Assembly (NCBI GenBank): GCA_902761625.1
Contig: CACWLH010000002.1
Location: 8,126-72,125, forward strand
DNA from: an uncultured Erysipelotrichaceae bacterium
GTDB lineage: Bacteria; Bacillota_I; Bacilli_A; Erysipelotrichales; Erysipelotrichaceae
Direction: 5' to 3'
Length of the DNA: 64,000 nucleotides
Part shown: piece by piece, positions 544-18,122 of the stretch
Position numbering within the stretch: the first letter of the stretch is position 1
How the letters are laid out: each line of letters begins with the position of its first letter
Program-made: the position numbers and the translations under genes
Notes under the pieces: model-generated
Told to the model about the DNA's origin: nothing
What the model saw: only the letters and a program-made list of their open reading frames with translations
Database searches by the model: none

Positions 544-2583
544 TCAATAAATGAATTCTCTGGTCATCAGATGTTTGGTTTTCTGGTCTGTTGTTGTTTC
601 CGTGATCAGTCTGTTGAAGCTGTCATAATATCTGGTCCGTTCCCAGAGCACGTGATGATTTCCATCTTCACATACAGCCTGGATTTCCAGTCCGTTCTCA
701 TTATACGTATATGAGGTCTTGGTGTAGCCGGTGTCCTCCTGATCATGAAAGTCATTATAGGTGATCAATGAATCCAGAGATCCGTTTTCATTGAAGATTT
801 CGATCCGGTAGGAAAAATCATCATTGCCCAGGATGGTTTCAATCCTGTGTTCTGAAATCTGTGAGCCTTTCCAGTCATATTTATGTTTCTCACGCAGCAC
901 ATCATTGATGTAGACGCCGGCAATCCGGTGTCTGCGGTTGTATGTATAACGATAATCCGAGAATTGCGAAGGCAGTCCGTTCTGGTAGCGGACCAGGCTC
1001 AGAAGTGCCCCGCTGCTGTCACGCTTTTCGGTTTCAGTCAGAATGCCGCGGCGGAATGTGTCTTTGGCGCTGCCTTCATCGGAATAGGTATAAATGTATT
1101 CAAGACGGTCATCCGCATCCGGATATTGTTCCTTGATCATGCGTCCGTTTGCATCATATTGGTATTTGACTGTACCGGAAGAAACACCGTTTTCCATCAT
1201 GATGACTTTGCGCACCAGTGTGGATTCAGGCATATCCTCTCCCTTTGTCCGATGAAGCGCCTTTTTCAGTCGTTCAATCTCATCGGTGAGTTCTCTGATC
1301 TGATTGCCGGATTCGGTTTTATAATCTTCGAACGCTTTGTTCAGCATTTCCTCCTGCTCAATCTGGCGGTCGTAGTCTTCCTTCCATTTCTGGATCTCCA
1401 GCTTGTATTCCTTGATATCCTTGCGCTGTTTTTTCAGCTTTTCATTCAATTCATTGCGGATGATCATATGCTGGCGTTTTTCTTCGGCCAGCTGTTCCTT
1501 CTGTTCCTCCATGAAACGGCTGATATTGACGGAACCCGTGCCTTCTTCCGAGCCATAGGATTCTTCAAATTGCTGAAGATCTTCGATCAGTTCTTCGCCG
1601 TTGTCATAACGGTGGCTGGGTTCTTTGTTGGAAGCCTTGCGGATGATGCGCTTGAGGCCTTCAGGCAGAAAGTCAAACTGGCCGTTGGCAACATATTTCA
1701 TCAGGCAGCCCAGATTAAACATGTCCACACGCGCATAATCAATCTCATCCTTGTCAAAGTCTCCGGTCATTTCCGGGGCGATCGCGAATTCATTGACGAT
1801 GATGGTGCGGGTGCTGTCCGTGATACTGCTTTCGGGAATGCCGCTTTCAATATCAATCAGCACGAATTCATAAACATCCGGACATTTGAAATTCAATGTG
1901 ATGCCGATGTTGGGAGGCTTGATGTCTCGATGGATAAAACCGGTTCCGTCGTCCGAATATTCCGATACCTGCAGGGCTGCGCCGATTTCCTTTCCCAGCT
2001 TGACGATCATGCGGATGATTGAAGGAAGATCTTCAGGAAGGCTGACATTCTTCAATGTTCCGGCAACCTCATCCATAACCACAAGTGAGGCACAGGGGAT
2101 CACAGAGTCAATGGAAAAGGAAAGGTCAGGATAATAATGCAGGAAATGATGTTCGTAAAACCGGTTCTGATGACACTGGGCCACCACTTCAAGCACCCGT
2201 CTGCTTCCTCTTAAGGAAGGCATGAATGAAGGTGCTTCCAGAAGGGTTTTCACGGTATCGGTCATATGAATATTATCGGGATTTTTATTTTTATTGAGCG
2301 ATGCCAGATAAGCGGAGATCGGGTTGACCGACTTCACGACAAGGGAAAGATCCATCAGCTCTTCGTCCTTCTCGCTTGTCTGATCATTGTCAACGGTGTA
2401 ATGAAGCCTGTATACAATTCCGCTTCCTCCGTCGCCCAGTCTTTTTCCGCAGCGAAACCGGCCGTGATAGCAATCCAGTCCGGCAATGTGTTCATTGAGC
2501 AGATTCTCAACCAGTGCCGGTGTGATTCTCGGCAGACTGTTCAGTCTGAGCTCTTCGGTTTTCGGTATCTTGTTTGCGGCCAT
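544..2583 (-). CDS. Cytoplasmic Hanks-type Ser/Thr protein kinase with a central coiled coil and C-terminal YD/MORN-like beta-hairpin repeats
   Basis: Kinase motifs are present: Gly-loop GDGGSGIVY, catalytic loop IHRDIKPPNI, LIDIESG in the DFG position and IAPE. A ~100-aa K/E-rich heptad region follows. The C-terminus has repeats such as YQYDANGRMI, YIYTYSDEG, YRYTYN and YTYNENG. No signal peptide or TM segment. Confidence 0.85.
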   Translation of the reverse strand: MAANKIPKTEELRLNSLPRITPALVENLLNEHIAGLDCYHGRFRCGKRLGDGGSGIVYRLHYTVDNDQTSEKDEELMDLSLVVKSVNPISAYLASLNKNKNPDNIHMTDTVKTLLEAPSFMPSLRGSRRVLEVVAQCHQNRFYEHHFLHYYPDLSFSIDSVIPCASLVVMDEVAGTLKNVSLPEDLPSIIRMIVKLGKEIGAALQVSEYSDDGTGFIHRDIKPPNIGITLNFKCPDVYEFVLIDIESGIPESSITDSTRTIIVNEFAIAPEMTGDFDKDEIDYARVDMFNLGCLMKYVANGQFDFLPEGLKRIIRKASNKEPSHRYDNGEELIEDLQQFEESYGSEEGTGSVNISRFMEEQKEQLAEEKRQHMIIRNELNEKLKKQRKDIKEYKLEIQKWKEDYDRQIEQEEMLNKAFEDYKTESGNQIRELTDEIERLKKALHRTKGEDMPESTLVRKVIMMENGVSSGTVKYQYDANGRMIKEQYPDADDRLEYIYTYSDEGSAKDTFRRGILTETEKRDSSGALLSLVRYQNGLPSQFSDYRYTYNRRHRIAGVYINDVLREKHKYDWKGSQISEHRIETILGNDDFSYRIEIFNENGSLDSLITYNDFHDQEDTGYTKTSYTYNENGLEIQAVCEDGNHHVLWERTRYYDSFNRLITETTTDQKTKHLMTREFIY

Positions 2584-2593
2584 ATTGATTTAC

Positions 2594-3373
2594 TTAACTG
2601 AGTTCTCTGATCCGGATCACACATGCGCTGATATTGTCACGGCTTGTTTTCAAAGCGGCATTGACAAGTGTCTGCGCATCGTATTGATTAGTTTCCAGTA
2701 TATTCAGTATATCATCTGTACGCAAAAATCCGTTCACATCTGTAAAGGCATGGATCAATCCGTCCGTGGCAAGCACATAAAGATCATCTTTCTCGGGTCT
2801 GAAGCGGTAGATATCTGCCATCTGATGGCCGGAATGGGATGTGTTGCCGGCATATTCACTCAGCCGTGACGTATTGGAAAGAGGCGTGATGATATGCGCT
2901 TTTCCATGATGAAAGCGTAATACCGCCGCATCGCCCATATTCAATATCCTGACTTCATCCGGATAGATTCCGATAACACTGAGAGCAGCTGCGAGCTGTC
3001 TGTTCCACTGGTTGGATATATGGATCATCGTTTCATTGATTTCATCCGCAATGGCATCCATGGACTGGTCCAGGGAATACTCATCAAACAGATCGTCCAG
3101 TATTCTTCTGACAATGGATACAGCCGCATCATCCTGCGGTCTTTCAGTGTGTTCGGCGCCGGATACCCCGTCGGCGATCACGCTCATGAATTCATTGATT
3201 CCTTCGTATTCTTTCTGATGCGATATATGGTTCTGTCCTTCTGAACAGATGGTTTCGCATCCATCTGAAAATCCATAGGCATCCAGATTGCTGGCCCGTC
3301 CGGATATATCACTTGCGGCTGAGATGAACAGATGCATCTCGAGCGCGTCTGAATCCTGTATCTGTGTGTTCAT
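2594..3373 (-). CDS. PP2C-family Ser/Thr protein phosphatase
   Basis: PP2C motifs VIADGVSGAEH, LNMGDAAV, VLATDGLIHAF and DNISACVI. GGAG RBS 8 nt upstream of the ATG. It ends 10 nt before the kinase gene on the same strand. Confidence 0.85.
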   Translation of the reverse strand: MNTQIQDSDALEMHLFISAASDISGRASNLDAYGFSDGCETICSEGQNHISHQKEYEGINEFMSVIADGVSGAEHTERPQDDAAVSIVRRILDDLFDEYSLDQSMDAIADEINETMIHISNQWNRQLAAALSVIGIYPDEVRILNMGDAAVLRFHHGKAHIITPLSNTSRLSEYAGNTSHSGHQMADIYRFRPEKDDLYVLATDGLIHAFTDVNGFLRTDDILNILETNQYDAQTLVNAALKTSRDNISACVIRIRELS

Positions 3374-3376
3374 AGT

Positions 3377-5485
3377 ATGTTCTCCGTGATCAAAAACATT
3401 GTTTCTGATCCGTTTTCAATTTATCTGCTTCACAATAACCCCTTTTTTTTGGAGATGTCGGATCTGTCTGCTATCATGAAAATGGCAGGTAAGTATATGA
3501 ATAATATAGCAGGAAAACAGAAATATATATCGCTTGTCACCGGCTGGAGTGACAGGGCGGAAAAAATCAGAGACGAAAAATACATTGACTGGCATGATTC
3601 CGTGGAGAAAAGGCTGAACAGTCCGTATTTCAATACGCGCCTGGCAGGTCTTCTGGGAATCAAAGATCCGGAAAACCTTTCAAAATACGGCAGTAAGAAT
3701 CAGCTGATCGCCGCGGTGACGGGTTTCAATGAGGCGGAAATTGAAAAACTGAGATGGCTGCCCAGTGACCGGCGTGATCTCATGTTTGCCTTTGCCTTTG
3801 TGCTTGGCTATGAATACCAGCTGCTCACCACAAAAGACGGCAAACTGATTGTCGACTGCAGCCCGGAACTCAATCAATACTTTGATGATGCCGATATGCC
3901 ATTGCCTGATTATCGCAATCTGGATGATTATATTGCCATCTGCGCAGCCATGTATTACAGCGAATGCAACCGGAAAAAAGTCTATGGAAAAAACCGCATG
4001 ATCACGCTGTATGATCTGCAGGACAATCTGAGAAATCAAATGAGCAGCTATATCCTTGATCTGGATGAATTTGTCAGCTGGCCGGATTTCTTTGAATATT
4101 ACACATCATTGTTCAAACTGACCAATGCGAAAATCAAGAAGATCACGGGATTTGAAAAGTACAATACGCTGGAATGGAAAAAGAGAGTCCCCGAAGAGCC
4201 GGAAGTGCTTTTCATGATCTGCATTCTGTTCCATTTCACCCTGATCCAGAGCGTTCTTGTCTTTGACCGTTTCTACAATCAGGAAGACAAAGTGCAGAGG
4301 CCTGACTTCGAAAACAGCGAGGATCTGAGATGGCTCTATCTGGTTGAGAATTTCTGGAAACTGAAAGAGCTTCATTTTGAGGACCAGATCCAGGCGGTCA
4401 GGGATTATTATGATCAGAACAATCTGAGAAGATCCACGGATCTTTCCATTCTCCAATATCATGAAATATTCCAGTCGCTCACATTTGCAATGGATCAGAA
4501 ACAGGAATCCGCAAACAGCGGGCCGGGACAGACATTGATTGTGTCCGATTCCGCACAGCTTGGCGAGATCGCCGCCATTTCTCCATACGACCGTGTATTC
4601 ATCCATGCCGTGGACGGAACCGATCCGGTGATCAAAGCCGCAACCGATTTCTCTCTGGGCTATCAGATGGACGTTCTGCACGCGGCTGACCCGGCGAAAA
4701 TCTTATGGTACAGAAAGAAGACAACCACAAAGAAAAAGAAGGATGTGTCTGATGATCTGATCAGACAGATCTATTACAAAAAGAAACCGGATATGATGGA
4801 TCTGAACATGGAGAAGGGCTCAAAGCTGCTTCTCGAATGGATCGCTGACAACTCCGTCAACGCATATCTGATGAGAATTTATGATCTGGATAAACAGGAT
4901 AAATCCCTTGTCTGGAATAAGAAGCTTTCCGATCTTCAGCTCAAACACGGCAGCTATCCGAAACGGAAGGAGCTGATCGTTGCCGGCGTATTGATGAGCA
5001 TGCCGGAAAAGGGAATCAATGCCTTGCTGAAATGCTACGGATACAAGGCTTTGAGCAAACACGACTATACCGAATATGTGCTGATTCTGATATTGAATGA
5101 TATGGCGAAATTCTTCCCGTCTGAATTCTGTTTCAATGAGAAATACACTGCCAACCGCGCCGATATTGACCATGGCATCCAGAATATCGGAGCCAGACGC
5201 CAGGCGGACCGCAGTGACAGGGAAGGCTGTCTCTCCCTGCTGAGAAAATGGTATCCGAGATGGTTCTATGAATATGATCAGTCAATTTCGCAGACCGTGG
5301 TCAATGAACGGATTTATATTGATAATCAAAACTGGTATACGGTGGAGCCGCAGGAATATTTCGATGCCTGGTCGGTCAGGAAGCATGTTCTCTGGTGCCT
5401 TCACGCGGCCGGTTTCCCGAAGAATAACTGGCTGGTGAGCGGCCTGGCCAATCCGATGAAAGAGGATGAATATCCGCTTGGATGA
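3377..5485 (+). CDS. Large hypothetical protein (702 aa as drawn), possibly with several degenerate XRE-like HTH units; start codon uncertain
   Basis: Long uninterrupted ORF with host-like codon usage. Recurrent segments LVTGWSDRAEKI, AAVTGFNEAEIEKLRW and KKITGFEKYNTLEWKK resemble HTH helices. The ATG at 3377 sits inside the RBS-to-start spacer of the divergent PP2C gene. In-frame alternative starts are at 3455 and 3476. Confidence 0.65.
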   Translation: MFSVIKNIVSDPFSIYLLHNNPFFLEMSDLSAIMKMAGKYMNNIAGKQKYISLVTGWSDRAEKIRDEKYIDWHDSVEKRLNSPYFNTRLAGLLGIKDPENLSKYGSKNQLIAAVTGFNEAEIEKLRWLPSDRRDLMFAFAFVLGYEYQLLTTKDGKLIVDCSPELNQYFDDADMPLPDYRNLDDYIAICAAMYYSECNRKKVYGKNRMITLYDLQDNLRNQMSSYILDLDEFVSWPDFFEYYTSLFKLTNAKIKKITGFEKYNTLEWKKRVPEEPEVLFMICILFHFTLIQSVLVFDRFYNQEDKVQRPDFENSEDLRWLYLVENFWKLKELHFEDQIQAVRDYYDQNNLRRSTDLSILQYHEIFQSLTFAMDQKQESANSGPGQTLIVSDSAQLGEIAAISPYDRVFIHAVDGTDPVIKAATDFSLGYQMDVLHAADPAKILWYRKKTTTKKKKDVSDDLIRQIYYKKKPDMMDLNMEKGSKLLLEWIADNSVNAYLMRIYDLDKQDKSLVWNKKLSDLQLKHGSYPKRKELIVAGVLMSMPEKGINALLKCYGYKALSKHDYTEYVLILILNDMAKFFPSEFCFNEKYTANRADIDHGIQNIGARRQADRSDREGCLSLLRKWYPRWFYEYDQSISQTVVNERIYIDNQNWYTVEPQEYFDAWSVRKHVLWCLHAAGFPKNNWLVSGLANPMKEDEYPLG

Positions 5486-5501
5486 CAGCATAACAAAAAG
5501 A

Positions 5502-5543
5502 GTCTTTGTGAATGAAGAAGTCTTCTGACACAAAGGCTTTTTT
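5502..5543 (+). terminator. Probable intrinsic terminator
   Basis: GTCTTTGTG ... CACAAAGGC stem (one G-U pair) followed by TTTTTT. Confidence 0.5.
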
Positions 5544-5631
5544 CTGTCTGCGTCTTCCTTCATGCAATAAAAGACGAAAAAAAAGAGTGGTATGACACTG
5601 CTTTACGCTGTATACGGGAGGAAAGCGCTTC

Positions 5632-6612
5632 ATGTTGAAATACAGATATTACCGCTCTTTGCTCAATCATAAGGAACAGACCGTCTATGAACAGCTGGTA
5701 AGCGCCATGGAGAAATGTGAAGAGGAAGTATTCACGGAAATGCTTTCGCAGGAAGAGCTGCACCGGATCTTTTTCGCCGTGAATCTGGACCAGCCGCAGC
5801 TGTTTCATGTGGATTTCAGAAGTATTGCCATCTGCCAAAGAGGAAACAGATATCTTCTGAAACCTGTCTATCATCTCAAGGGAAAACAATATACGGACGC
5901 AAAAAAGAATGTGGATCTGGCTGCCGCTGCGATTCTGGATGAAATGAAACAGAAGAAGCCGGAAGATCCGTTTCTTTTCCTTCATGACTGGCTGATTGTC
6001 AATTGCACATATGGAGAAACAGAAGAAAGAAGCAGGGAAGCCCATTGTGTCTATGGCGCTCTGGTTGATCATCATTGCGTCTGTGAAGGCTTTGCCAAGG
6101 CATACAGATATCTCTGCACGCTGGCTGATCTGCAATGCACAGTGATCACCGGCAATGCCACAGTGCCTTTTCAGCCTTCCGGTCCCCATGCATGGAATAT
6201 GATCCGTGATCACGGGCATCTGTATCATGTGGATGTGACCTTTGATCATCTGATTGCGCAGAAGTATTGTTCACGTTCCTATTACAGGGTTTCCGGACAG
6301 ATCATCCGCAAAGATCATTCGTTTGACACGCTCTTTCCGATTCCGCAGGCAAAACATAACGGATCTTCTCTCAAAACGGTCGCAGGAACCCGCCAGCTGA
6401 TCGCATTTATGAAAGACGAATGTTACCGGGGCAGCCATATGAGTCAGGTCAGGCTGACAAAAGGATTTGAAATGGATGACATCATTCAGAAAATCGAATC
6501 CGGCCTTTGCGAGGAGGATTATGCATGGTTTTCAAGGCTTCAAAGCTGCCATTATGCCCCGGGCACACGGGTGATCAGCTTTGTCTGGAATCAGCCTGTG
6601 TATGGCACATGA
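5632..6612 (+). CDS. Transglutaminase-like (papain-fold) cysteine protease superfamily protein
   Basis: A Cys-His-Asp core in canonical spacing: HHCVCEGFAKAY ... GPHAWNMI ... YHVDVTFD. GGGAGGA RBS upstream. Confidence 0.85.
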   Translation: MLKYRYYRSLLNHKEQTVYEQLVSAMEKCEEEVFTEMLSQEELHRIFFAVNLDQPQLFHVDFRSIAICQRGNRYLLKPVYHLKGKQYTDAKKNVDLAAAAILDEMKQKKPEDPFLFLHDWLIVNCTYGETEERSREAHCVYGALVDHHCVCEGFAKAYRYLCTLADLQCTVITGNATVPFQPSGPHAWNMIRDHGHLYHVDVTFDHLIAQKYCSRSYYRVSGQIIRKDHSFDTLFPIPQAKHNGSSLKTVAGTRQLIAFMKDECYRGSHMSQVRLTKGFEMDDIIQKIESGLCEEDYAWFSRLQSCHYAPGTRVISFVWNQPVYGT

Positions 6613-6687
6613 TCAGATCTGTTTTCAAAACATGAAAAAAAAGCAGTCTGGGTGAACAGATATGCTTGAAGTGTAAGGAGGAAAAAC

Positions 6688-7455
6688 ATGTCAGTTTTCA
6701 AAACAGGCGTCAATAACGCAAAACTCAATATCATTTTCATTCTCGATTCCAGCGGCTCCATGAGAGGGGCACGCATCGGTCAGCTCAATCTCGGTGTGCG
6801 GGACTGTCTGAACATGATCAGCCATATGGACGGTCTTGAGGAAGTCAACGTCGAGATCCGCATTCTCCAGTTTGACGAAGATGTCAGATGGGTGCTTGGC
6901 AATGAAGAATCCGGTGTTACTCCGGAAGAAGCGCTGAACACATTCCGTGACATCGATGCCGTCAATGCCATCACCTGCACACACATGGCGGTAAACAAGA
7001 CCATGGAATGCCTGAAGTCGATTTACGCCAGCGGCGGCAACAATTACATGCCGATTCTCATCCTGGTCACCGACGGACGTTCCACTTATCCCGAGGAAAC
7101 CGTAAAGTCCTGTATGGATCTCAGCAAAGTTCTCCACGGTCATACCCACCGTGATGAAGAACGCACCATCCGCATCTCCATCGGCGTCGAAGAGGCCAAC
7201 CGCGATGAACTGCTCGCCTTTGCCTCAAAGAGAACCATCGTTCATTCCGACGGACTGCAGGAAGCGGATGTGCCCAATATCTTCGAGGTCGACTCAGTCG
7301 AAAATCTCAGAGATGTCCTGAAGAACATCACCATGGCATCCATCTCCAATTCGATTTCCGCAAGTTCCTCTGAAACCGGACAGGTCATCGAATATGAGGA
7401 TGACATTTCCGATTCGGATGACGATGAGGATGACGGCATCTGGGAGGATCTCTGA
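6688..7455 (+). CDS. von Willebrand factor A (TerY-like) protein with an intact MIDAS and an acidic C-terminal tail
   Basis: MIDAS motif IIFILDSSGSMRG, then ITCTH and ILILVTDGRS. The C-terminus is EYEDDISDSDDDEDDGIWEDL. AAGGAGG RBS upstream. Confidence 0.9.
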   Translation: MSVFKTGVNNAKLNIIFILDSSGSMRGARIGQLNLGVRDCLNMISHMDGLEEVNVEIRILQFDEDVRWVLGNEESGVTPEEALNTFRDIDAVNAITCTHMAVNKTMECLKSIYASGGNNYMPILILVTDGRSTYPEETVKSCMDLSKVLHGHTHRDEERTIRISIGVEEANRDELLAFASKRTIVHSDGLQEADVPNIFEVDSVENLRDVLKNITMASISNSISASSSETGQVIEYEDDISDSDDDEDDGIWEDL

Positions 7456-7481
7456 ACCATTGAAAAAAACGGAGGAATGCA

Positions 7482-9188
7482 ATGAACAGGAACATGGAAG
7501 ATAACAGAAACGAAATCATACTGCCGTCCATCATGATCAATGAAGAGGAAAATACCGGTCAGTATGAACAGTACAGCCGTGAAACCTGCGCATGCGATTC
7601 CTCCGTTTATCTGTTCACTGCCCGCCGCAAGGGCAGAGGCCATATTGCAAAGGGAATGCCCTGTCAGGATTATGCCCTGAACCGGGAAATGAAATACGGT
7701 CTGATCATGACGGCGGCGGATGGACTTGGCAGCTGTGAATACAGTGATGAAGGTTCCCGGATTGCCTGCGAAAGTGCGGTCCATATCATCTCGGAAATCG
7801 GCACAAAGGCAAAGTCGGAAACCATCTTCATCAAAAAGCTGAACCAGCTGTTCACAAGAAAGCGGATCGTCATGGAATGGATGGACAGAGTCAGCGCTGT
7901 TGCTCAGGGAAAAAGCGGCGCTATGCCGGATGATCTTTATGAGGCAGCCCGTCCGTATAATTCCACTTTGATGTGCGCGGTGATCACGAAGCATTTCATC
8001 TATGTCATGAATATCGGCGACGGTCAGATTCTTCTGTTCAATTCCGATTATGCATACAGACTCCGTCCGTATATGAAAAAGAACAGCTCCATGACGGATT
8101 CCCTTCATGATGTGCGCAGCTGGATGGAAGGCTTTCAGACCGCCCTGTTTCCGAGAAGGTATTTCAACGGGATTCTTCTTTCAAGTGACGGCATCTATGA
8201 TTTTCTGAATGAGGGACAGAGTTTCCACCGTTATGCATGCCAGATGGCAGAGCGGTTTGTCTCCGCCGGCAGCCCGGCGTTTCCGTTTGATTATGTGACG
8301 GAAGACGGTAAGGTCCATCATATTTATGAAGGCGGCAGTTTTGATGACTGCACCGTCAATCTGGCCGTGATGATGAAGCCGCTCGCAGCTGATCCGGTTC
8401 ATGAATATGTACAGAATGCTTTTGAGAAAAACGCCATCAGCCGCATGAGCAGAAATGTGCGCAGATATCATGTGGCAAAAGACGGCAGAGAATCCATTCT
8501 GGTCACTTCATCCGCAATGTATGACTTCGATGTACAAAGCGCCAGTTTGATCAGGCCGTATCATGAAGAGACGGTTCATGATTGTCATTATTCGCTGTAT
8601 GAAACCATCCCGTTTACTTCCCTGGAAGAAATGTATGTTTCAGGCGCGTTCCATAATGGCAGAACGAATGATCTGAAACATCTCATGCGGATCGGCAGCT
8701 GCTATGCAAAACTGAAACGGCTCGCCGATGAACTGGCTGCGCAGAAATGGAAACTTTCAGACGCGTCCGGATTTCTTTGCGGTTTTGATGAAAGCGGCAG
8801 CCTTTATTTATGTGCGCAGGCGGTTTCACGGATGGAACAGGAAAAACCGGGTGAGCGCTATGCATGGGTCAATCTTTATTTCCGCAACATCTTCGGGTTC
8901 CTCGTTTTTGAAAACAGAAAAATTCCGGTCTTCCGCAAAGGCATCAATGAAACGGAACAGAAGGTGGAGCGGATTGACGGGCTGGATCATACACATTTCG
9001 GCACTATTCATTCCGCCGGCACTCATTGTGAGCTGGTCAATGAAAGCGGAAAAGAGTGGATCTGTGAAAATGGAGAATGCATCAGCCAGGGAGAATCGAT
9101 TGTTCTGGACAAGGCGGTCTCATTCAGCTTTGCGCCGAGAAATGATATCCGTCTGGCCTATCACTTTGTGAGAAAGGAGAGCTTATGA
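7482..9188 (+). CDS. PP2C_2-type phosphatase domain protein with a ~270-aa C-terminal extension
   Basis: KGMPCQDYAL, TAADGLGSCEYSDEGSRIA, NIGDGQILL and LLSSDGIYDF match the PP2C_2 pattern. The extension is unassigned. Its last ~60 aa look like a beta-rich module, possibly FHA-like. Confidence 0.8.
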   Translation: MNRNMEDNRNEIILPSIMINEEENTGQYEQYSRETCACDSSVYLFTARRKGRGHIAKGMPCQDYALNREMKYGLIMTAADGLGSCEYSDEGSRIACESAVHIISEIGTKAKSETIFIKKLNQLFTRKRIVMEWMDRVSAVAQGKSGAMPDDLYEAARPYNSTLMCAVITKHFIYVMNIGDGQILLFNSDYAYRLRPYMKKNSSMTDSLHDVRSWMEGFQTALFPRRYFNGILLSSDGIYDFLNEGQSFHRYACQMAERFVSAGSPAFPFDYVTEDGKVHHIYEGGSFDDCTVNLAVMMKPLAADPVHEYVQNAFEKNAISRMSRNVRRYHVAKDGRESILVTSSAMYDFDVQSASLIRPYHEETVHDCHYSLYETIPFTSLEEMYVSGAFHNGRTNDLKHLMRIGSCYAKLKRLADELAAQKWKLSDASGFLCGFDESGSLYLCAQAVSRMEQEKPGERYAWVNLYFRNIFGFLVFENRKIPVFRKGINETEQKVERIDGLDHTHFGTIHSAGTHCELVNESGKEWICENGECISQGESIVLDKAVSFSFAPRNDIRLAYHFVRKESL

Positions 9189-10645
9189 TCAAAGGCGATT
9201 ACCGGGAAGTGATCAAAACACTGCCCGGCGGGAAAAAGAAAACATACAAAGTCATAAGCTCCAAGGCCGGCAATGAATATGCGCTGCTGGGCAGACTGGG
9301 GCAGGGCGGGGTTGCCCGGGTTTTCCGTGCGAAGCGCTTAAGCGACGGGGCAATGTTTGCCTTCAAGCTGTTTGATTATTCTGATTCATCCGAAACCCGC
9401 TGGGAACACCGCAATATCCGCTCGAATATTGAAAGTCTGATCGCAAGAGGGACATCGGATGATCCTCAGCTGTTTGAAATTCTGGCAAGACCTTATGAAA
9501 TCATTGATCTCAAGGCATCGGGCGGCTTCGGCTATATCATGGAACTGGTCAGTCTTGACAACATGATGAAATTCTCAAAGATGATGAAATCGGCCCAGCC
9601 GGACAGGATGATCAGCCTGAAGATCTGCCGCAATATGGCATCCTTCTATGCGAGGCTGCACAGAAAATACGGCTTATGTTACAAGGATCTGAACAAAGGC
9701 AATCTGTTTGTGAATCCCGATACCGGCGAGATCCGGATCATCGATCTGGACAATATCAGCGTTCCCGAAACCAGAACGGTTATCGGCACATATGGATTCA
9801 TCGCTCCGGAGGTTTATGAAAGCGGCAGGCCGGATTATTATTCCGATTATTTTTCAGAAGCGTCTCTTTATTTCTTTCTGCTTACGATGGGGGCATTGCC
9901 TCTGATCGGCAGAAAAGTGCTGGATTATTCCCGCACGGGAGCGAATCTGAATGATTATGAAGTGCAGAAGAAGGTCTTCAATGAAGAGGCAATGTTCATC
10001 TTTGATCCGGACCACAATGAAAACTCCATCCGCGGACTGGAAGAATACAATGATCAGACCATGTTATGGGATGATCTTCCGGAAGAATTGAAACAGGCGT
10101 TTATCCGCACATTCACGAAAGGTCTTCATGATCCGTACCAGCGTGTTTCGGATAAAAACTGGGAGAAGATCTTTGAAGATGCGATTGCCACGCAGCTGGT
10201 GCAATGCCGCTGCGGAAAGCATAATTTCGGCGTGCATGCAGGAAGAAAAAAATGTATTTACTGTCACCGGCCGATCCGCAAACTCCATGGCGCAAAAGTC
10301 CCAGCAAAAAAGAAAAGTGAAAAACCATGCGTGAAATTTGAGGTGATCCGCAGCGTTGAACCGATGCGCATGCAGCTGATTGCGGATAATCAGAATCCGC
10401 AGATCAAAGATGTCCATCCCATGTTGCATGGGGATTTGTTAACTGTTAAAGTCAATAGGAAGAGGCATCTTTACGGGGCGCTCAACACGTCCCCGATCAC
10501 CTGGACGGTCTATGATAAAGAACACAATAAATCCCGTGTGGAGCCGGGCTGTATGGCGGTGCTTGAAGAGGGAACCATTATTGTGGTGATGTACAGAAAA
10601 CTTCAGCTTATGGTGAATGAAGTCATAACAGGAGGCGCAATATAA
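9185..10645 (+). CDS. Divergent Ser/Thr protein kinase with a zinc ribbon and a C-terminal beta-rich (FHA-like?) domain
   Basis: GQGGVARVF Gly-loop, AFKL lysine, YKDLNKGNLFV catalytic loop, IIDLDN and GFIAPE. Zinc ribbon CRCGKHN...CIYCHRP. The ATGA start overlaps the stop of the preceding gene. Confidence 0.85.
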   Translation: MIKGDYREVIKTLPGGKKKTYKVISSKAGNEYALLGRLGQGGVARVFRAKRLSDGAMFAFKLFDYSDSSETRWEHRNIRSNIESLIARGTSDDPQLFEILARPYEIIDLKASGGFGYIMELVSLDNMMKFSKMMKSAQPDRMISLKICRNMASFYARLHRKYGLCYKDLNKGNLFVNPDTGEIRIIDLDNISVPETRTVIGTYGFIAPEVYESGRPDYYSDYFSEASLYFFLLTMGALPLIGRKVLDYSRTGANLNDYEVQKKVFNEEAMFIFDPDHNENSIRGLEEYNDQTMLWDDLPEELKQAFIRTFTKGLHDPYQRVSDKNWEKIFEDAIATQLVQCRCGKHNFGVHAGRKKCIYCHRPIRKLHGAKVPAKKKSEKPCVKFEVIRSVEPMRMQLIADNQNPQIKDVHPMLHGDLLTVKVNRKRHLYGALNTSPITWTVYDKEHNKSRVEPGCMAVLEEGTIIVVMYRKLQLMVNEVITGGAI

Positions 10646-10646
10646 T

Positions 10647-11846
10647 ATGCAAACAGAAACAGCCAAAATGAACTCACTGGATTTATATCAGCGCATTCTG
10701 GCCGTGAAATCACAGGATTCATCCTTTGACGGCAGAAAGGCCGTGACTGCACTGATCACAAAGATGGCGCTTGAGCTGATTGAGGAGAAAACATCTCCAT
10801 TGCTCAATGCGTGCGTTTATGTGCTCGGACGGCGTGAACATCTTTATATCGGTCATGTCTACCGGTTTCAGCGGTTTGATCTGGATCTGAGAAATCCCGT
10901 GGACGGTGTGTCGGCGGCGGATGCGGCGGTATTGATCCGCTGTCTGGCCCAACTGGTTTCAAACGGACAGATCCGCAACAATGTCATCTATGATGTATGG
11001 TATGAATCATTCGGCACCTCCGGAACCACGCTAGGCGCCAATGCGGAGCGGGCTTATTATCTGGTCCGCATGATTGAAAGCTATCTGCCTGATTATGAAG
11101 CGCGTATCAATCATTCTCAGAAAGACGCTGCCGCGCAGACAGAAGAGCCGAAAACGGATGAACAGAACATCACACAGCCGGATGAGAAACAGGTGAGTGA
11201 AGAACAGGCACAGCAGATCATCAAAGAAGCGCAGGAAAAGGCCAGGGCAATCATTGCCAAAGCGGAACAGGAAGCCACTGAAATCCTGAAAAATGCGCAG
11301 AATGTGTCTGATCAGAAAATCAGGAAAGCGGCAGAGCAGGCAAAGCAGATGAATGTTTCCCGGAATCTGGAAACATTTGAAACACAGCAGAATGAGATCC
11401 ATACCGCTCTTTCGGAAATCCGCCGGCGGCTCAATGAAACCGGCGCATATCTGAATCAGATTGATCAGAAAATCAATGATGAAACGGTTATGAAGATCTT
11501 TGATCAATACGATGAACTCTATAACCTCATCGCGGATGTGGCGGACAGTACGGCAGCCAATATGGATGGGGACAGTCCTGATCTCAGGCGGGTTTATCAG
11601 AATCATCAGGCATATCTGGATCTGATTGAGGAAAATCTCTCAGACTTCGGAATTGAATATCTTGCCACATCGCAGGGCGAGCCGTTTGACGGCAGAAAGC
11701 ACGAGGTGAGCGGTTCGAAAAACTTTGATCCGCGCAGCGCAAAAGTGAAGAAGAGTCTGCGACATGGCTTTGTTTACGGAAAGTCCGTATTGAAGAAAGA
11801 ACTGGTTGAACTTCAGGAGGAACAATCAAATGTATATCGGCGTTGA
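10647..11846 (+). CDS. GrpE-like nucleotide-exchange factor with a novel N-terminal domain and a long coiled coil
   Basis: The C-terminus LSDFGIEYLATSQGEPFDGRKHEV...LRHGFVYGKSVLKKELVEL follows the GrpE pattern (FGvE..G.pFDp..HeA...GY..g..lR.a.V.V). It is preceded by the helix EQAQQIIKEAQEKARAIIAKAEQEATEIL. The gene starts 1 nt after the kinase stop. Confidence 0.7.
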   Translation: MQTETAKMNSLDLYQRILAVKSQDSSFDGRKAVTALITKMALELIEEKTSPLLNACVYVLGRREHLYIGHVYRFQRFDLDLRNPVDGVSAADAAVLIRCLAQLVSNGQIRNNVIYDVWYESFGTSGTTLGANAERAYYLVRMIESYLPDYEARINHSQKDAAAQTEEPKTDEQNITQPDEKQVSEEQAQQIIKEAQEKARAIIAKAEQEATEILKNAQNVSDQKIRKAAEQAKQMNVSRNLETFETQQNEIHTALSEIRRRLNETGAYLNQIDQKINDETVMKIFDQYDELYNLIADVADSTAANMDGDSPDLRRVYQNHQAYLDLIEENLSDFGIEYLATSQGEPFDGRKHEVSGSKNFDPRSAKVKKSLRHGFVYGKSVLKKELVELQEEQSNVYRR

Positions 11847-13299
11847 CTTCGGAACAGCCTATTCCCAGGCTGCGGTGATGGAATTCTCCCAGCCGCTCAT
11901 TCTTCAGGAAAAAGGCGTCTACGGCACCCCGAGTGTCTTCTATTATGATCAGGACACCGGCATCGCCATCGGTCAGGAGGCAATTGATATCGCCCAGGGC
12001 AGTCTTTCCGTCAATATGAAGACCGATGTCAAAATGGCATTGCAGGAAAACAAACCCTTTACCGCAGACGGAAAGGAATTCAGCTGTTCAGAGATTGTTT
12101 CCGAAATTTTCAAAGCGGTTCTGCTTGAGGCAAAGGAAATCGCCGCCAACAGCGGAATGGATGATGAAATCAAAGGAATGGTGATTACCGTTCCCGCCAA
12201 ATTCGGCTATCTGGAACGGGATATCATTTTCAAAAGCGCCGCTTCCGCTTTGGGCGATGAGAAAATTCCGATCACCGGTGTTCTGAAAGAACCGGTGGCG
12301 GCAGCCCTGCATTATTTCCGCACCAATGTTGAGGATGGAAAGCATATTCTTGTCTTTGATCTTGGCGGAGGCACATGCGATATCGCTCTGGTCAGAGCCA
12401 ATTCCGGCTCCAGGGAATTCTATGATGTCATCGATTCCGAGATGGAGAGGATCGGTGGACGAAACTGGGATGAGAAGATCGCGGAATATCTGAAAAATGA
12501 ATATGAAAAAATGACCGGCATTGCCATCGGTTCAAATCCGGCCTACGAAAGAAAAATCCTTGATGCGGCCATCCGCGCCAAGCACCGCCTTTCCAGAAAT
12601 GACAAGGCGCTCTGCTCGGTGGAAATCAACGGGAATGTCAATAAGATTCATCTGAGCCTTCAGCAGTTCAATGATCTGACTGCACCGCTTCTGGACCAGG
12701 CGGTCTCCGCATTGAAGCGGGTGTACAACCGTCATGTCTCAGACTGTGAAATCGATGAGATCATCTGTGTCGGCGGCAGTTCAAACATGACCCAGATCAA
12801 GGAAAGAATCGCAGCTGAATTCCCCCTGTGCAATGTGCGGGTGTACTATCCGGAATATGCGGTGGTCTATGGAGCGGCCCTTTATGCGGATATGAGAAAG
12901 GGCAAGGTTGTCGATGTCATTGACAGGGCGAATTTCTCCTATGGCATCCAGGTGGTGAAACACAAGGGAACAGAAAACGAAAAATACAAGATTCAGAATA
13001 TGGTCATCAAGGATTCCGCTTTGCCGGCCTCTTCGGTGCGCAACTACCGTCCCACCGAGGACAACATGGCATTTATCGCCTTCCGCACCTATGAAACCGA
13101 TACGGTATATGAGCGGTGCGACATGGATGAATTCCCGATGACCAAGATCGGTGAACTCAAACTCAAGCTTCCTCCGAATACACCGAAAACAACCGATATC
13201 CGCACCCAGCTCACCCTCAATGAGAACGGCGTTCTCGAAGTCAAGGCATGGGATCCGGAAGGCAATGTGATTCAGACTGAATTCAATGTGATTCAATGA
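11830..13299 (+). CDS. Hsp70/DnaK-family ATPase, short lidless form (489 aa)
   Basis: Hsp70 motifs IGVDFGT, VFDLGGGTCDIAL and ICVGGSSNMTQIKERI. A beta-sandwich substrate domain is present but no helical lid and no EEVD tail. GGAGGA RBS 8 nt upstream of the ATG at 11830. The gene overlaps the end of the GrpE-like gene. Confidence 0.9.
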   Translation: MYIGVDFGTAYSQAAVMEFSQPLILQEKGVYGTPSVFYYDQDTGIAIGQEAIDIAQGSLSVNMKTDVKMALQENKPFTADGKEFSCSEIVSEIFKAVLLEAKEIAANSGMDDEIKGMVITVPAKFGYLERDIIFKSAASALGDEKIPITGVLKEPVAAALHYFRTNVEDGKHILVFDLGGGTCDIALVRANSGSREFYDVIDSEMERIGGRNWDEKIAEYLKNEYEKMTGIAIGSNPAYERKILDAAIRAKHRLSRNDKALCSVEINGNVNKIHLSLQQFNDLTAPLLDQAVSALKRVYNRHVSDCEIDEIICVGGSSNMTQIKERIAAEFPLCNVRVYYPEYAVVYGAALYADMRKGKVVDVIDRANFSYGIQVVKHKGTENEKYKIQNMVIKDSALPASSVRNYRPTEDNMAFIAFRTYETDTVYERCDMDEFPMTKIGELKLKLPPNTPKTTDIRTQLTLNENGVLEVKAWDPEGNVIQTEFNVIQ

Positions 13300-13976
13300 T
13301 GAATGGGTCCGGAAGAATCATTGCCATTGCGGATATTCACGGCTGCAGCAGGGAATTCAAAGCGCTGTTGCAGCAGATCAGTCCGGATCCGGCAAATGAC
13401 ACATTGATCATTCTCGGCGATGTCATTGACAGAGGATATGATTCCGAAGGCGTCATCCGTGAGCTGATTGAACTTAAAGATGTCTTCAGACAGAAAATGA
13501 TCTGGCTGGCGGGCAATCATGAGGATGATCTTGTGCAAAGAAATGCGCAGAAACATTTCTTCATTCATCCGCCGCGCGATGCGCTCAGCACGTATATCCG
13601 GCTGTTCAGTGAACTTCCGTTAATTTATGAAACAGAAGAATGTGTCTTTGTGCATGCGGGATTCAATGGTGATCCGGACGACAGGCAGATCATTCTTCGT
13701 GACAGGAGTGTATTGAACGGGGAAAGGATTTATCAGGGAAAGCTGTATATCAGCGGGCATTCCCCGTTTCATAAACATTCGTTCACACCATTGGCTCAGC
13801 CGTTATATATTGATGAAACAGGTCAGTGTCATATTGTATATGACGGCATGAAACTGCCGGAAAAAGGCGCCATATTCATTGACACAGGCTGTGTATACAA
13901 AAACAGACTGACCGCATTCATCATTGCGCAGGACCATACCATTCAGATCAGCTTTGTAAAGTTCATCGGAATATAA
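13296..13976 (+). CDS. PPP-family (calcineurin-like) metallophosphatase, PrpA/lambda-phosphatase-like
   Basis: Motifs IADIHGC, ILGDVIDRG, GNHE, VHAG and SGHS. The ATGA start overlaps the Hsp70 stop. Confidence 0.9.
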   Translation: MMNGSGRIIAIADIHGCSREFKALLQQISPDPANDTLIILGDVIDRGYDSEGVIRELIELKDVFRQKMIWLAGNHEDDLVQRNAQKHFFIHPPRDALSTYIRLFSELPLIYETEECVFVHAGFNGDPDDRQIILRDRSVLNGERIYQGKLYISGHSPFHKHSFTPLAQPLYIDETGQCHIVYDGMKLPEKGAIFIDTGCVYKNRLTAFIIAQDHTIQISFVKFIGI

Positions 13977-18096: not shown

Positions 18097-18122
18097 GCAT
18101 TTTCTGACAATTGAATACGAAG

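What the first reader, a model, noticed from the sequence alone, without database searches (positions are those of the whole stretch)
544..13976. Ten-gene island combining two Ser/Thr kinases, three phosphatases, a vWA protein, a transglutaminase-like protease and a dedicated GrpE-Hsp70 pair: candidate undescribed conflict or stress system
Thirteen kilobases are filled almost entirely with signalling and chaperone genes that normally occur singly. These are a kinase with coiled coil and YD-like repeats (544-2583), PP2C (2594-3373), a 702-aa unknown protein (3377-5485) and a transglutaminase-like Cys-His-Asp protein (5632-6612). They are followed by vWA (6688-7455), PP2C_2 (7482-9188), kinase with Zn ribbon (9185-10645), GrpE-like (10647-11846), lidless Hsp70 (11830-13299) and a PPP phosphatase (13296-13976). 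The last six genes are translationally coupled: there are ATGA overlaps at 9185 and 13296, a 1-nt gap at 10646 and a 17-nt overlap at 11830. I saw no terminator between 5632 and 13976. The vWA-PP2C-kinase core matches the TerY-P triad, but I do not know of a described system that adds a private Hsp70/GrpE machine, a third phosphatase type, a papain-fold enzyme and a second kinase/PP2C pair. None of the proteins has a signal peptide or TM helix, so this would be a cytoplasmic multi-component switch. That logic is typical of phage-defence or abortive-infection modules: a sensor scaffold, reversible phosphorylation and an effector or chaperone.
Basis: partly seen in the sequence, partly recalled or inferred. 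Interest (0 to 1): 0.88.

Follow-up and report, generated by a model that had tools for sequence, protein, structure and literature searches.

The report
TerY-P phospho-switch with private Hsp70–GrpE
A gut Firmicute carries a conserved operon that joins a known kinase/phosphatase/vWA switch (the TerY-P triad) to its own lid-less Hsp70 chaperone, a GrpE exchange factor and a papain-like enzyme. I found no description of this combination, it looks like a conflict or defence module, and the three genes on its left are a separate, lineage-specific add-on.

Summary
All ten ORFs exist at the stated coordinates, and nine of the ten domain calls are confirmed. That includes the doubtful GrpE call: the C-terminal 175 aa hit Pfam GrpE at E 6.5e-8, above the curated cut-off. 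The 702-aa protein stays unassigned.

The island is not one unit. It has three transcription units: kinase-RHS plus small PP2C on the minus strand, the 702-aa gene alone, and a seven-gene plus-strand operon.

The array vWA – long PP2C – STK-Zn-ribbon – GrpE-like – lidless Hsp70 recurs in about a dozen contig types with about nine unrelated flanks. It is complete in every locus with enough upstream sequence. A transglutaminase-like gene usually accompanies it. Other versions add an HNH toxin, extra vWA copies, a pseudokinase or a different metallophosphoesterase.

W5–W7 are homologous to the classical ter-plasmid TerY-P triad. No J-protein, GTPase, MoxR or McrBC gene is present. No PADLOC model fits beyond generic kinase hits, and no paper I could search describes the cassette.

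My best reading is a phosphorylation-gated, chaperone-controlled conflict system with swappable effectors. No function has been tested. Novelty: a new variant of a known kind.

The parts
485..504 (.). Terminator-like hairpin (8-bp stem, then a T-run) between the upstream gene and the 3' end of the minus-strand kinase gene. It marks the left edge of the island.
544..2583 (-). W1, 679 aa: Ser/Thr kinase with HRDIKPPN and APE motifs, then a coiled coil, then C-terminal RHS/YD repeats. Part of the accessory left arm, not of the conserved core.
   Evidence: Homologues occur only in L016/L018 (45-52% identity) and L017 (26%).
2594..3373 (-). W2, 259 aa: small PP2C phosphatase, co-directional with W1 and 10 nt upstream of it. 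Accessory left arm.
3377..5485 (+). W3, a 702-aa ORF of unknown fold. The real start is probably M35-M42, about 3479-3500. It is transcribed on its own. One hydrophobic stretch at residues 277-295. There are faint, non-significant Cro/C1-type HTH hints. The family is tiny.
   Evidence: (8 representatives among 1.84 billion proteins).
5502..5545 (+). Hairpin (8-bp stem, long loop) followed by TTTTTTCT, directly after the W3 stop codon. It separates W3 from the seven-gene operon.
   Evidence: Read from the sequence. The scan did not report it because the loop exceeds 8 nt.
5632..6612 (+). W4, 326 aa: transglutaminase/papain-fold protein with an invariant Cys (CVCEG), His (HAWN) and Asp (HVDVT). 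First gene of the operon and the candidate effector or processing enzyme.
   Evidence: Orthologues sit next to the cassette in L016, L018, L024, L027, L029, L031 and L011.
6688..7455 (+). W5, 255 aa: TerY-like vWA protein with an intact MIDAS site (DxSxS...T...D). It ends in a conserved acidic tail, W-E-D-L-COOH.
7482..9188 (+). W6, 568 aa: N-terminal PP2C_2 phosphatase with PCQDY, ADG, GDGQ and SSDG motifs, plus a roughly 300-aa extension. The extension ends in a beta-rich module that is also found in the kinase.
   Evidence: (hhalign probability 88%, E 3e-6).
9185..10645 (+). W7, 486 aa: Ser/Thr kinase whose Gly-loop, Lys, D..N, DLD and APE motifs are all present (activity not assayed), then a CxC...CxxC Zn ribbon, then a C-terminal beta-rich module.
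10647..11846 (+). W8, 399 aa: an N-terminal domain of about 150 aa of unknown function, a long coiled coil, and a C-terminal GrpE domain. Predicted dedicated nucleotide-exchange factor.
   Evidence: JGI names a fragment from the same 90% cluster GrpE.
11830..13299 (+). W9, 489 aa: Hsp70 with the nucleotide-binding domain and the beta substrate-binding domain but no helical lid. The DnaK D8, E171 and D194-T199 equivalents are kept. About 27% identical to DnaK/HscA.
13296..13976 (+). W10, 226 aa: PPP-family metallophosphoesterase with DIHG, GDVIDRG and GNHE motifs. It resembles ApaH, PrpE and PrpA. Specific to this subclade.
13979..14004 (+). Weak hairpin (GCCGG...CCGGC) followed by TTTT, 3 nt after the W10 stop codon. 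Probable end of the operon.
   Evidence: Read from the sequence. Not reported.

Best explanation
**What it is.** Genes 5632-13976 form one operon. It is a TerY-P-type phosphorylation switch welded to a private Hsp70 machine.

**Constant core**
- a TerY-like vWA adaptor with a MIDAS site and an acidic W-E-E-type tail
- a long PP2C phosphatase
- a Ser/Thr kinase with a Zn ribbon
- a GrpE-domain exchange factor carrying an extra N-terminal domain
- a lidless Hsp70 whose catalytic residues are all kept

**Shown**
- Kinase and phosphatase carry the same C-terminal beta-rich module.
- The effector-like genes beside the core differ between versions.

**Inferred mechanism**
- Because they share that module, both enzymes are aimed at one common partner.
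- In the resting state the phosphatases (PP2C, and here also the PPP enzyme W10) hold the switch off, and the Hsp70/GrpE cycle holds or remodels the vWA-kinase complex. This would parallel the way MoxR ATPases partner vWA proteins.
- A trigger tips the balance towards the kinase. The trigger could be a phage or other invader protein, or a flood of unfolded client that titrates the Hsp70.
- The output is the variable neighbour gene: a transglutaminase/papain-fold enzyme here, or an HNH nuclease or trypsin-like protease elsewhere. Alternatively the kinase acts directly on host targets.

**The left arm.** Kinase-RHS, small PP2C and the 702-aa protein form a separately transcribed signalling module. 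It is attached only in this lineage. It may feed into the operon, but nothing shows this.
For: - **Domains and catalytic motifs.**
- **Operon structure.** Genes are closely packed or overlapping, each with a Shine-Dalgarno sequence, and hairpins bracket the operon.
- **Synteny.** The array vWA-PP2C-STK-(pseudokinase)-GrpE-Hsp70 is complete in every locus with enough upstream sequence.
- **Unrelated flanks.** Examples are Amt-PII / DUF4317 in L027, LysR-TauE / proBAC in L029, PBP / FMN reductase in L024, YceD-L32 in L031, IS110 in L005, and a type II restriction-modification system in L008.
- **TerY-P homology.** W5-W7 match the Klebsiella ter-plasmid triad.
- **Shared module.** STK, pseudokinase and PP2C share a C-terminal module.
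- **Constant core, variable effectors.** The TGase-like gene appears in 7 contexts, Tox-HNH-HHH in 5 and trypsin-like genes in 1.
- **Context.** Defence or mobile-element genes lie nearby in some loci. These are EcoRII/Dcm/Vsr, PDC-S02, IS110 and an IMG/VR viral contig.
- **Patchy distribution.** Only 2 of 185,579 GTDB species representatives were found with the GrpE-like patterns.
- **Precedents.** TerY-P-like modules were reported to work as stand-alone anti-phage systems (Gao 2020, as cited in PMC11090510). Hsp70+GrpE and kinase-ZnR/PP2C/vWA were each reported as add-ons of GTPase conflict systems (PMC7159879).
Against: - No function has been tested, and nothing here shows a response to phage.
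- No PADLOC model other than generic kinase models matches.
- Several copies sit between housekeeping genes with no mobile or defence genes within 10 kb (L027, L029). That also fits an ordinary accessory stress or signalling operon.
- GC content does not differ from the surroundings. No flanking repeats or tRNA genes mark an island.
- No J-domain partner is present, so it is unclear how the Hsp70 cycle is driven.
- Structure prediction failed for W8 and for most of W3, so no interaction is supported structurally.
- The genome-wide rarity estimate rests on a narrow pattern search.
- I could not read Anantharaman et al. 2012. It may already mention this association.
Confidence: 0.55

Rival explanations
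1. The operon is an endogenous stress or developmental signalling module, not a conflict system. A specialised Hsp70/GrpE pair folds or holds a particular client, with the vWA protein as adaptor. Ser/Thr phosphorylation controls it in response to proteotoxic, metal or envelope stress. The transglutaminase-like enzyme modifies a cellular target.
For: - Several copies lie between housekeeping genes with no mobile or defence genes nearby (L027, L029, L031).
- The window is chromosomal and its GC content is uniform.
- TerY-P was first linked to chemical-stress (tellurite) resistance (cited in PMC11090510).
- Distant homologues of the left arm sit beside FtsW/RodA and a PBP in L017, as housekeeping PP2C/kinase pairs do in some bacteria (the comparison rests on my own knowledge).
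Against: - The distribution is very patchy.
- A constant core with swapped nuclease or protease neighbours is typical of conflict systems.
- Some copies sit beside restriction-modification genes, an IS element, or on a contig called viral.
- Island proteins are 40-70% identical between relatives, while a flanking peptidase is 86% identical.
Confidence: 0.25
2. One reading: all ten genes, including kinase-RHS, the small PP2C, the 702-aa protein and the PPP phosphatase, are obligatory parts of one ten-component system.
For: All ten genes keep their order and orientation in L016 and L018 at 40-70% protein identity.
Against: - Those loci share the right flank with the window, so they are the same region in relatives and not independent evidence.
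- The arm is absent from all other contexts of the core.
- The arm is transcribed separately, with a hairpin after W3.
- Its distant homologues occur in a different setting, L017. That contig ends right after the W3-like gene, so linkage there cannot be excluded.
Confidence: 0.15
3. The cassette serves a mobile element rather than the host. It could be an addiction or exclusion module, or a counter-defence module of a prophage or ICE. In that case the kinase/phosphatase pair and the Hsp70 would manipulate host proteins during transfer or induction.
For: - One widespread version lies on a 66.9-kb contig held in IMG/VR, and its Hsp70 is labelled Caudoviricetes in nr.
- IS110 and integrase-like (rve) genes lie nearby in clade B.
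- PcfJ and SNF2 genes lie downstream in the window.
Against: - There is no match in 50,697 phage records or 72,556 plasmid records beyond DnaK/HscA-level similarity of about 27%.
- Several copies have purely chromosomal housekeeping flanks.
Confidence: 0.1
4. The genes are unrelated signalling and chaperone genes that lie side by side by chance.
For: None beyond the fact that each domain family is common on its own.
Against: The same order recurs in about a dozen contig types with different flanks, down to 29-45% protein identity, with overlapping or tightly spaced genes.
Confidence: 0.02

Closest known systems
TerY-P triad (Anantharaman, Iyer & Aravind 2012; shown as a stand-alone anti-phage system by Gao et al. 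2020, both as cited in PMC11090510)
   Same: - It has a TerY-like vWA protein, a long PP2C and a Ser/Thr kinase with a C-terminal Zn ribbon, in the same order and with similar sizes as on Klebsiella ter plasmids.
- There is direct sequence homology: kinase 29% identity at E 2e-21, vWA 31%, PP2C 26%.
   Different: - A GrpE-domain protein, a lidless Hsp70 and usually a transglutaminase-like gene sit inside the same operon.
- There are no Ter (TerD/TerB/TerC) genes.
- The PP2C domain is N-terminal here and C-terminal in the ter-plasmid protein.
- The kinase tail is a Zn ribbon plus a beta module, not the OB fold of the tested Gao version.
- The vWA and PP2C proteins match no PADLOC model, and the kinase matches only generic kinase models.
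GAP1-N2 GTPase-centric conflict systems (Kaur, Burroughs, Iyer & Aravind 2020, PMC7159879)
   Same: That paper reports two accessory themes. One is HSP70 + GrpE, sometimes with an Hsp70 that lacks its peptide-binding domain. The other is kinase-Zn ribbon-beta-rich domain + PP2C + stand-alone vWA. Both gene sets are the ones seen here.
   Different: - In that paper the two themes are described as non-overlapping and both depend on GTPase, GAP1 and FNIII-repeat genes.
- Here the two themes are fused in one operon, and Pfam finds no GTPase, GAP1, FNIII or DnaJ-domain gene.
CoCoNuT Type II/III-A McrBC-like systems with a TerY-P triad and the Hsp70-like CnuD domain (PMC11090510)
   Same: [quoted passage not shown]
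   Different: - No McrB GTPase, McrC/DUF2357, CnuH helicase, HEPN or coiled-coil nuclease genes are present here.
- CnuD has degenerate ATPase motifs and is predicted to bind RNA. W9 keeps its catalytic residues and has a dedicated GrpE.
Housekeeping DnaK-DnaJ-GrpE chaperone system
   Same: It has an Hsp70 nucleotide-binding domain with catalytic residues, a beta substrate-binding domain, and a GrpE-domain partner encoded immediately upstream.
   Different: - It is only about 27% identical to DnaK/HscA.
- It has no helical lid and no hydrophobic VLLL linker.
- No J-domain protein is found in any context.
- The GrpE carries a roughly 225-aa N-terminal extension made of an unknown domain plus a coiled coil.
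- The pair is embedded in a kinase/phosphatase operon.
MoxR-vWA chaperone/co-chaperone conflict systems (Kaur et al. 2020)
   Same: The logic is the same: an ATP-driven chaperone is paired with a stand-alone MIDAS vWA protein and variable effectors such as peptidases and nucleases.
   Different: The ATPase is an Hsp70, not an AAA+ MoxR. There is no VMAP or third 'ternary' component. A kinase/phosphatase pair is added.

Membership tests
TerY-P triad | Stand-alone TerY-like vWA protein with a MIDAS motif | tested here: met
   Pfam VWA E 3.4e-10. DxSxS, T and D are conserved. 31% identical to the ter-plasmid vWA, E 7e-11.
TerY-P triad | Adjacent PP2C-family phosphatase | tested here: met
   PP2C_2 E 1e-28. 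Metal-binding motifs are conserved. Homologous to the ter-plasmid PP2C at E 1e-8, but with the opposite domain order.
TerY-P triad | Adjacent Ser/Thr kinase fused to a C-terminal Zn ribbon | tested here: met
   Pkinase E 1.5e-13. CxC...CxxC is conserved. The alignment with the ter-plasmid kinase runs through the Zn ribbon, E 2e-21.
TerY-P triad (experimentally tested Gao 2020 / PADLOC definition) | Match to curated defence-system models, and an OB fold after the kinase | tested here: not met
   The PADLOC scan gives no hit for the vWA or PP2C proteins and only generic kinase models (PD-T4-6, mad6) for W7. The C-terminal module has no OB-fold or other family hit. I did not verify which TerY-P models PADLOC-DB 2.0.0 holds.
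TerY-P triad | Anti-phage or tellurite-resistance phenotype | not testable with these tools
   Needs an experiment.
Hsp70/GrpE chaperone pair | Hsp70 nucleotide-binding domain with catalytic residues, plus a beta substrate-binding domain | tested here: met
   HSP70 E 7.4e-52. The D8, E171 and DLGGGT equivalents are kept, and the alignment runs to the end of SBD-beta.
Hsp70/GrpE chaperone pair | Alpha-helical lid of the substrate-binding domain | tested here: not met
   The protein ends where the DnaK lid begins. This holds for all 7 aligned family members, and 120 homologues are 484-516 aa long.
Hsp70/GrpE chaperone pair | GrpE-domain nucleotide-exchange factor | tested here: met
   The C-terminal 175 aa hit Pfam GrpE at E 6.5e-8, 32.9 bits (cut-off 25.8), covering nearly the whole model. 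6 of 8 members hit. L032's orthologue carries a precomputed PF01025 hit.
Hsp70/GrpE chaperone pair | J-domain co-chaperone | tested here: not met
   No DnaJ family appears in the Pfam scans of the ten proteins or in the precomputed Pfam lists of any neighbourhood.
GAP1-N2 GTPase-centric system (Kaur 2020) | TRAFAC GTPase(s) with N-terminal Zn ribbons, a GAP1 protein and an FNIII-repeat protein | tested here: not met
   No GTPase or FNIII family appears among the ten proteins or in the cassette neighbourhoods. GAP1 has no Pfam model that I know of, so its absence is only inferred.
CoCoNuT Type II/III (McrBC-like) | McrB-like NxD GTPase, McrC N-terminal DUF2357, CnuH helicase and a HEPN protein | tested here: not met
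   None of these families appears in the Pfam or PADLOC scans of the island or of its homologous loci.
MoxR-vWA ternary systems | MoxR AAA+ ATPase next to the vWA protein | tested here: not met
   No AAA+ or MoxR hit.

The most novel reading that the evidence does not exclude
The lidless Hsp70 with its private GrpE is the sensor of a new kind of bacterial immune or stress switch. It would normally clamp the vWA-kinase complex, or the protease or nuclease effector. It would be titrated away when infection floods the cell with foreign or unfolded protein. That would release a kinase-driven, phosphatase-reset response. This would be a chaperone-titration immune sensor. It would be analogous to DnaK control of sigma-32 and to MoxR-vWA systems, but built on Hsp70 and without any J-protein.
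Probability: 0.2. Interest if true: 0.85.

Novelty: new variant of a known kind. Interest (0 to 1): 0.64.

Why it matters
**Why it matters if true**
- It would add an Hsp70/nucleotide-exchange-factor machine to the parts known to run prokaryotic conflict systems.
- It would give a compact six- or seven-gene model for asking how TerY-P phospho-switches, whose mechanism is unknown, are triggered and reset.

**What makes it useful now**
- The cassette is common in human-gut Lachnospiraceae-type contigs, for example Blautia and Eisenbergiella. It may therefore shape phage–host dynamics in the gut.
- It offers three testable handles.
  - An Hsp70 that seems to work without a lid or a J-protein.
  - One targeting module shared by a kinase, a pseudokinase and the opposing phosphatase.
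  - A conserved acidic W-E-E tail on the vWA adaptor.

Tried and rejected
**Analyses that gave nothing**
GrpE homology was settled instead by a domain-only Pfam scan.
2. AlphaFold2 of the 702-aa protein gave pLDDT 44, with only residues about 65-220 confident.
   - Foldseek against the PDB gave nothing below E 1.
   - The scattered Cro/C1 HTH matches are not evidence.
   - Domain-only Pfam scans of W3, the W6 C-terminus, the W8 N-terminus, the W1 N-terminus and the W4 C-terminus found nothing.
3. The C-terminal module of the kinase and PP2C looked FHA-like by eye.
   - Pfam gave no hit.
   - The best PDB sequence hits for the PP2C version are the FhaA FHA domain, but at E 0.4.
   - I treat this as a hint only.
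4. Profile search of the full-length GrpE-like family against PDB sequences was swamped by coiled-coil matches. GrpE itself scored only E 0.2-0.5.
5. Phage and plasmid collections held only DnaK/HscA-level matches to the Hsp70.
6. I looked for island boundaries. There are no tRNA genes, no meaningful flanking repeats, no GC shift and no Rfam family in the window.
7. I could not obtain Anantharaman et al. 2012. I therefore cannot exclude that it mentions a TerY-P/Hsp70 link.

**Readings rejected**
- W10 and the post-Hsp70 gene of clade B are not orthologues, since an HMM of the W10 family finds no clade B protein. The Blautia-type protein does carry metallophosphoesterase motifs, which points to non-orthologous replacement.
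- I rejected membership in the GAP1-N2, CoCoNuT and MoxR-vWA systems because their defining NTPases are absent.

Full report
**1. What is in the sequence**

The ten ORFs are real and lie at the stated coordinates. W1 (544-2583) and W2 (2594-3373) are on the minus strand. W3 to W10 (3377-13976) are on the plus strand.

Domain scans gave these results:

| Gene | Assignment | Evidence |
|---|---|---|
| W1 | RHS repeat; weak kinase match, backed by PADLOC and NCBIfam kinase models and HRDIKPPN / APE motifs | |
| W2 | PP2C | |
| W3 | no family | |
| W4 | Transglut_core | |
| W5 | VWA | |
| W6 | PP2C_2, E 1e-28 | |
| W7 | Pkinase | |
| W8 | no hit at full length; GrpE when scanned as a domain | |
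| W9 | HSP70, E 7e-52 | |
| W10 | Metallophos | |

The doubtful GrpE call was settled by scanning the C-terminal 175 residues alone.
- They hit Pfam GrpE at E 6.5e-8 and 32.9 bits, above the 25.8-bit cut-off.
- The match covers model positions 9-162 of 165.
- Six of eight family members hit, best E 1.1e-10.
- One distant orthologue already carries a precomputed GrpE hit.
- W8 is therefore an unknown N-terminal domain, a long coiled coil and a GrpE domain.

- It keeps the D8, E171 and DLGGGT equivalents.
- It lacks the hydrophobic interdomain linker and the whole helical lid.

Catalytic or binding motifs are intact and conserved in all the other core proteins:
- the TGase Cys-His-Asp triad and the PP2C metal-binding motifs;
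- the kinase motifs and the CxC...CxxC Zn ribbon;
- the vWA MIDAS site.

**2. Transcription units**

There are three units, not one.
- W2-W1 run leftwards and end at a hairpin at 485-504.
- W3 stands alone.
  - Its homologues align only from residue about 42-48, so the real start is probably 3479-3500.
  - That leaves about 100 nt for divergent promoters.
  - A hairpin and T-run follow its stop codon at about 5502-5545.
- W4-W10 form a tight operon.
  - Each start has a Shine-Dalgarno sequence.
  - There are two ATGA overlaps, a 17-nt overlap and a 1-nt gap.
  - A weak hairpin follows the last stop codon.

The rest of the window is chromosomal. The S10/spc/alpha ribosomal-protein operon lies at 45-59 kb. 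GC content is uniform.

**3. Conservation elsewhere**

The GrpE-like protein has only three word-sharing relatives among 5.8 billion clusters. The Hsp70 belongs to a well-populated subfamily of proteins about 490 aa long, all without a lid, at 39-78% identity.

I fetched neighbourhoods and labelled their ORFs by BLAST against the window proteins. Every locus with enough upstream sequence carries the complete array vWA – long PP2C – STK-Zn ribbon – GrpE-like – Hsp70.

Two forms exist.
- **Window-like form.** A transglutaminase-like gene sits directly upstream. It occurs in the window, L016/L018, L024, L027, L029 and L031.
- **Blautia-like form.**
  - It occurs in L005-L007, L008-L010/L019/L028, L011-L013 and L021-L023.
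  - It has one to three vWA copies.
  - It has a pseudokinase paralogue between kinase and GrpE. The paralogue has lost the Gly-loop, Lys and HRD motifs but keeps the Zn ribbon and C-terminal module.
  - It often has a Tox-HNH-HHH gene upstream.
  - In L011 a TGase-like gene and trypsin-like genes lie beside the cassette.

The flanks are unrelated between loci:
- ammonium transporter-PII and DUF4317 (L027);
- LysR/TauE and proBAC (L029);
- a PBP and an FMN reductase (L024);
- YceD-L32 (L031);
- IS110 (L005);
- an EcoRII/Dcm/Vsr restriction-modification system on a contig that IMG/VR lists as viral (L008/L019);
- a PDC-S02 candidate defence gene (L011).

So the six- or seven-gene core is a unit that has been placed in many locations. 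A pattern-limited scan of 185,579 species-representative genomes found it only in a Blautia sp. and in Candidatus Eisenbergiella stercoravium.

**4. The left arm and the PPP phosphatase**

- All ten genes are kept in L016 and L018 at 40-70% identity.
  - Those loci also share the right flank with the window, including an S9 peptidase at 86% identity.
  - They are therefore the same chromosomal region in relatives, not independent evidence.
- W1-W3 are absent from every other cassette context.
- Distant homologues of all three (26-31% identity) lie together in L017 beside FtsW/RodA and a PBP.
  - That contig ends just after the W3-like gene.
- The W3 family is tiny, with eight representatives among 1.84 billion proteins.
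- W10 is confined to the window subclade.
  - In the Blautia form the gene after Hsp70 is a different metallophosphoesterase. It has GDTHG, GDFG, GNHE and GHFH motifs and a weak YfcE/Metallophos_2 match.
  - A third phosphoesterase has therefore been recruited twice from different subfamilies.

**5. Relation to known systems**

- **TerY-P triad.**
  - A tblastn search with W7 hit more than 2,300 plasmids.
  - In the one enterobacterial example I inspected, the annotated order is vWA-TerD-vWA-(TerY-C)-PP2C-kinase. This is the classical TerY-P arrangement.
  - Pairwise comparisons give kinase 29% identity through the Zn ribbon (E 2e-21), vWA 31% (E 7e-11) and PP2C 26% (E 1e-8).
  - The PP2C domain sits at the opposite end of the protein.
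  - W5-W7 therefore pass the architectural and homology tests for a TerY-P triad.
- **Gao / PADLOC version.** No PADLOC model beyond generic kinases matches. The kinase tail is not the OB fold of the tested Gao version.
- **GAP1-N2 systems.** Kaur et al. 2020 describe HSP70+GrpE and kinase-ZnR-beta domain/PP2C/vWA as two non-overlapping accessory themes of GAP1-N2 GTPase systems. Here both are fused in one operon, and no GTPase, FNIII or DnaJ gene is present.
- **CoCoNuT systems.** CoCoNuT type III-A systems combine TerY-P with an Hsp70-like domain. That domain has degenerate ATPase motifs and sits within McrBC-like systems.
- **Literature.** None of my searches found a description of a stand-alone TerY-P + Hsp70/GrpE (+TGase) cassette. 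The original TerY-P paper could not be read.

**6. New details**

- The last roughly 100 residues of the kinase, the pseudokinase and the long PP2C share one beta-rich module with the motif K-N-x-S-x-x-x-W ... P-G-E ... L.
  - hhalign gives probability 88% and E 3e-6.
  - Opposing enzymes thus carry the same probable docking domain.
  - It has no Pfam or PDB assignment. There is only an FHA-like hint at E 0.4.
- All vWA copies in all forms end in an acidic tail with W-E-E or W-E-D-L at the C-terminus.
  - Enterobacterial TerY proteins end differently.
  - A Prevotella plasmid TerY-P vWA ends in DDWG.
- No J-domain protein is present in any context.

**7. Mechanism**

*Shown.* There is a conserved operon encoding a kinase, a phosphatase and an Hsp70 that all keep their catalytic motifs, together with a GrpE-domain protein, a MIDAS vWA protein and variable protease or nuclease neighbours.

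*Inferred.*
- The kinase/phosphatase pair forms a threshold switch on a shared partner, most likely the vWA protein or the Hsp70 complex.
- The Hsp70/GrpE cycle plays the role that MoxR plays for vWA proteins in related systems. It either holds the complex inactive or loads it.
- The output is the neighbouring TGase-fold enzyme or HNH nuclease, or phosphorylation of host proteins by the kinase.
- W10 could be a second protein phosphatase or an Ap4A-type nucleotide hydrolase. Its best NCBIfam hits are ApaH and PrpE, below their cut-offs.

A constant core with swapped effectors, a patchy distribution, and occasional restriction-modification, IS or viral neighbours favour a conflict or defence role. 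I put that at about 0.55. An endogenous stress-signalling role remains a serious rival at about 0.25.

**8. Verdict**

- The real unit is a six- or seven-gene TerY-P + GrpE/Hsp70 (+TGase) operon, not a ten-gene system.
- It is a new variant of a known kind. It is of good but not exceptional interest, because no function is shown and its parts have each been linked to conflict systems before.

Noticed in passing
window 8886-9185 and 10328-10642; L005 8399-8713: The long PP2C, the kinase and, in other loci, a pseudokinase paralogue all end in the same roughly 100-aa beta-rich module (hhalign probability 88%, E 3e-6). It has no Pfam or PDB family. The best, non-significant PDB hits are the FhaA FHA domain.
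   Followed up: partly
window 7387-7455 (C-terminus of the vWA protein): The vWA proteins of every cassette form, and their paralogues, end in an acidic tail closing with W-E-E or W-E-D-L. A Prevotella plasmid TerY-P vWA ends in DDWG. Klebsiella TerY proteins end in LPPPPPEvxVL instead. This may be a docking peptide.
   Followed up: partly
window 3373-3500: As called, the divergent W2 and W3 start codons lie 3 nt apart. W3 homologues align only from residue about 42-48, and a promoter-like site lies at 3450-3477. W3 therefore probably starts at 3479-3500.
   Followed up: partly
window 4205-4261 (W3 residues 277-295): This is a strongly hydrophobic 19-residue stretch (Kyte-Doolittle 2.42) that is conserved in homologues.
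   Followed up: no
L017 1-9439: Distant homologues of W1, W2 and W3 (26-31% identity) lie together beside FtsW/RodA and a PBP transpeptidase. L024 also has a PBP next to its cassette. A possible cell-wall link was not explored.
   Followed up: no
L007 11663-12397; L022 7501-8055; L023 12297-12953; L025 4004-4676: In Blautia-type cassettes the gene after Hsp70 is a metallophosphoesterase with GDTHG, GNHE and GHFH motifs. It is not orthologous to the window's PPP enzyme. A third phosphoesterase has been recruited twice.
   Followed up: partly
L005 983-2967: Blautia-type loci carry a second partial set upstream. It consists of an extra vWA, a truncated kinase C-lobe with a Zn ribbon (260 aa) and a 132-aa ORF, preceded by a Tox-HNH-HHH protein.
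   Followed up: no
window 21217-28789: This stretch holds three genes. The first is a SNF2 helicase with SNF2_assoc and SWIM domains (PADLOC DpdE/ZorD-like, E 5.8e-150). The second is a UvrA-like double ABC ATPase (PADLOC mad3, E 1.7e-72). The third is an MFS transporter. These may be generic family hits rather than a defence system.
   Followed up: no
window 32398-42044: A pilin-like protein (FctA/DUF7601) and a 2,407-aa adhesin carry SpaA, DUF7601, DUF285 and LRR_5 repeats. This is probably a sortase-dependent surface-fibre locus.
   Followed up: no
window 43855-44934 and 45860-58758: An IS1595-family transposase lies just upstream of the S10/spc/alpha ribosomal-protein operon (L3, L2, S3, SecY, RpoA). 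No tRNA gene and no Rfam family at gathering score were found anywhere in the 64 kb.
   Followed up: no
window 16654-19698: An S9-type peptidase or esterase here is 86% identical to its counterpart in L018. A PcfJ-like protein follows the island, which may be a remnant of a conjugative element.
   Followed up: no
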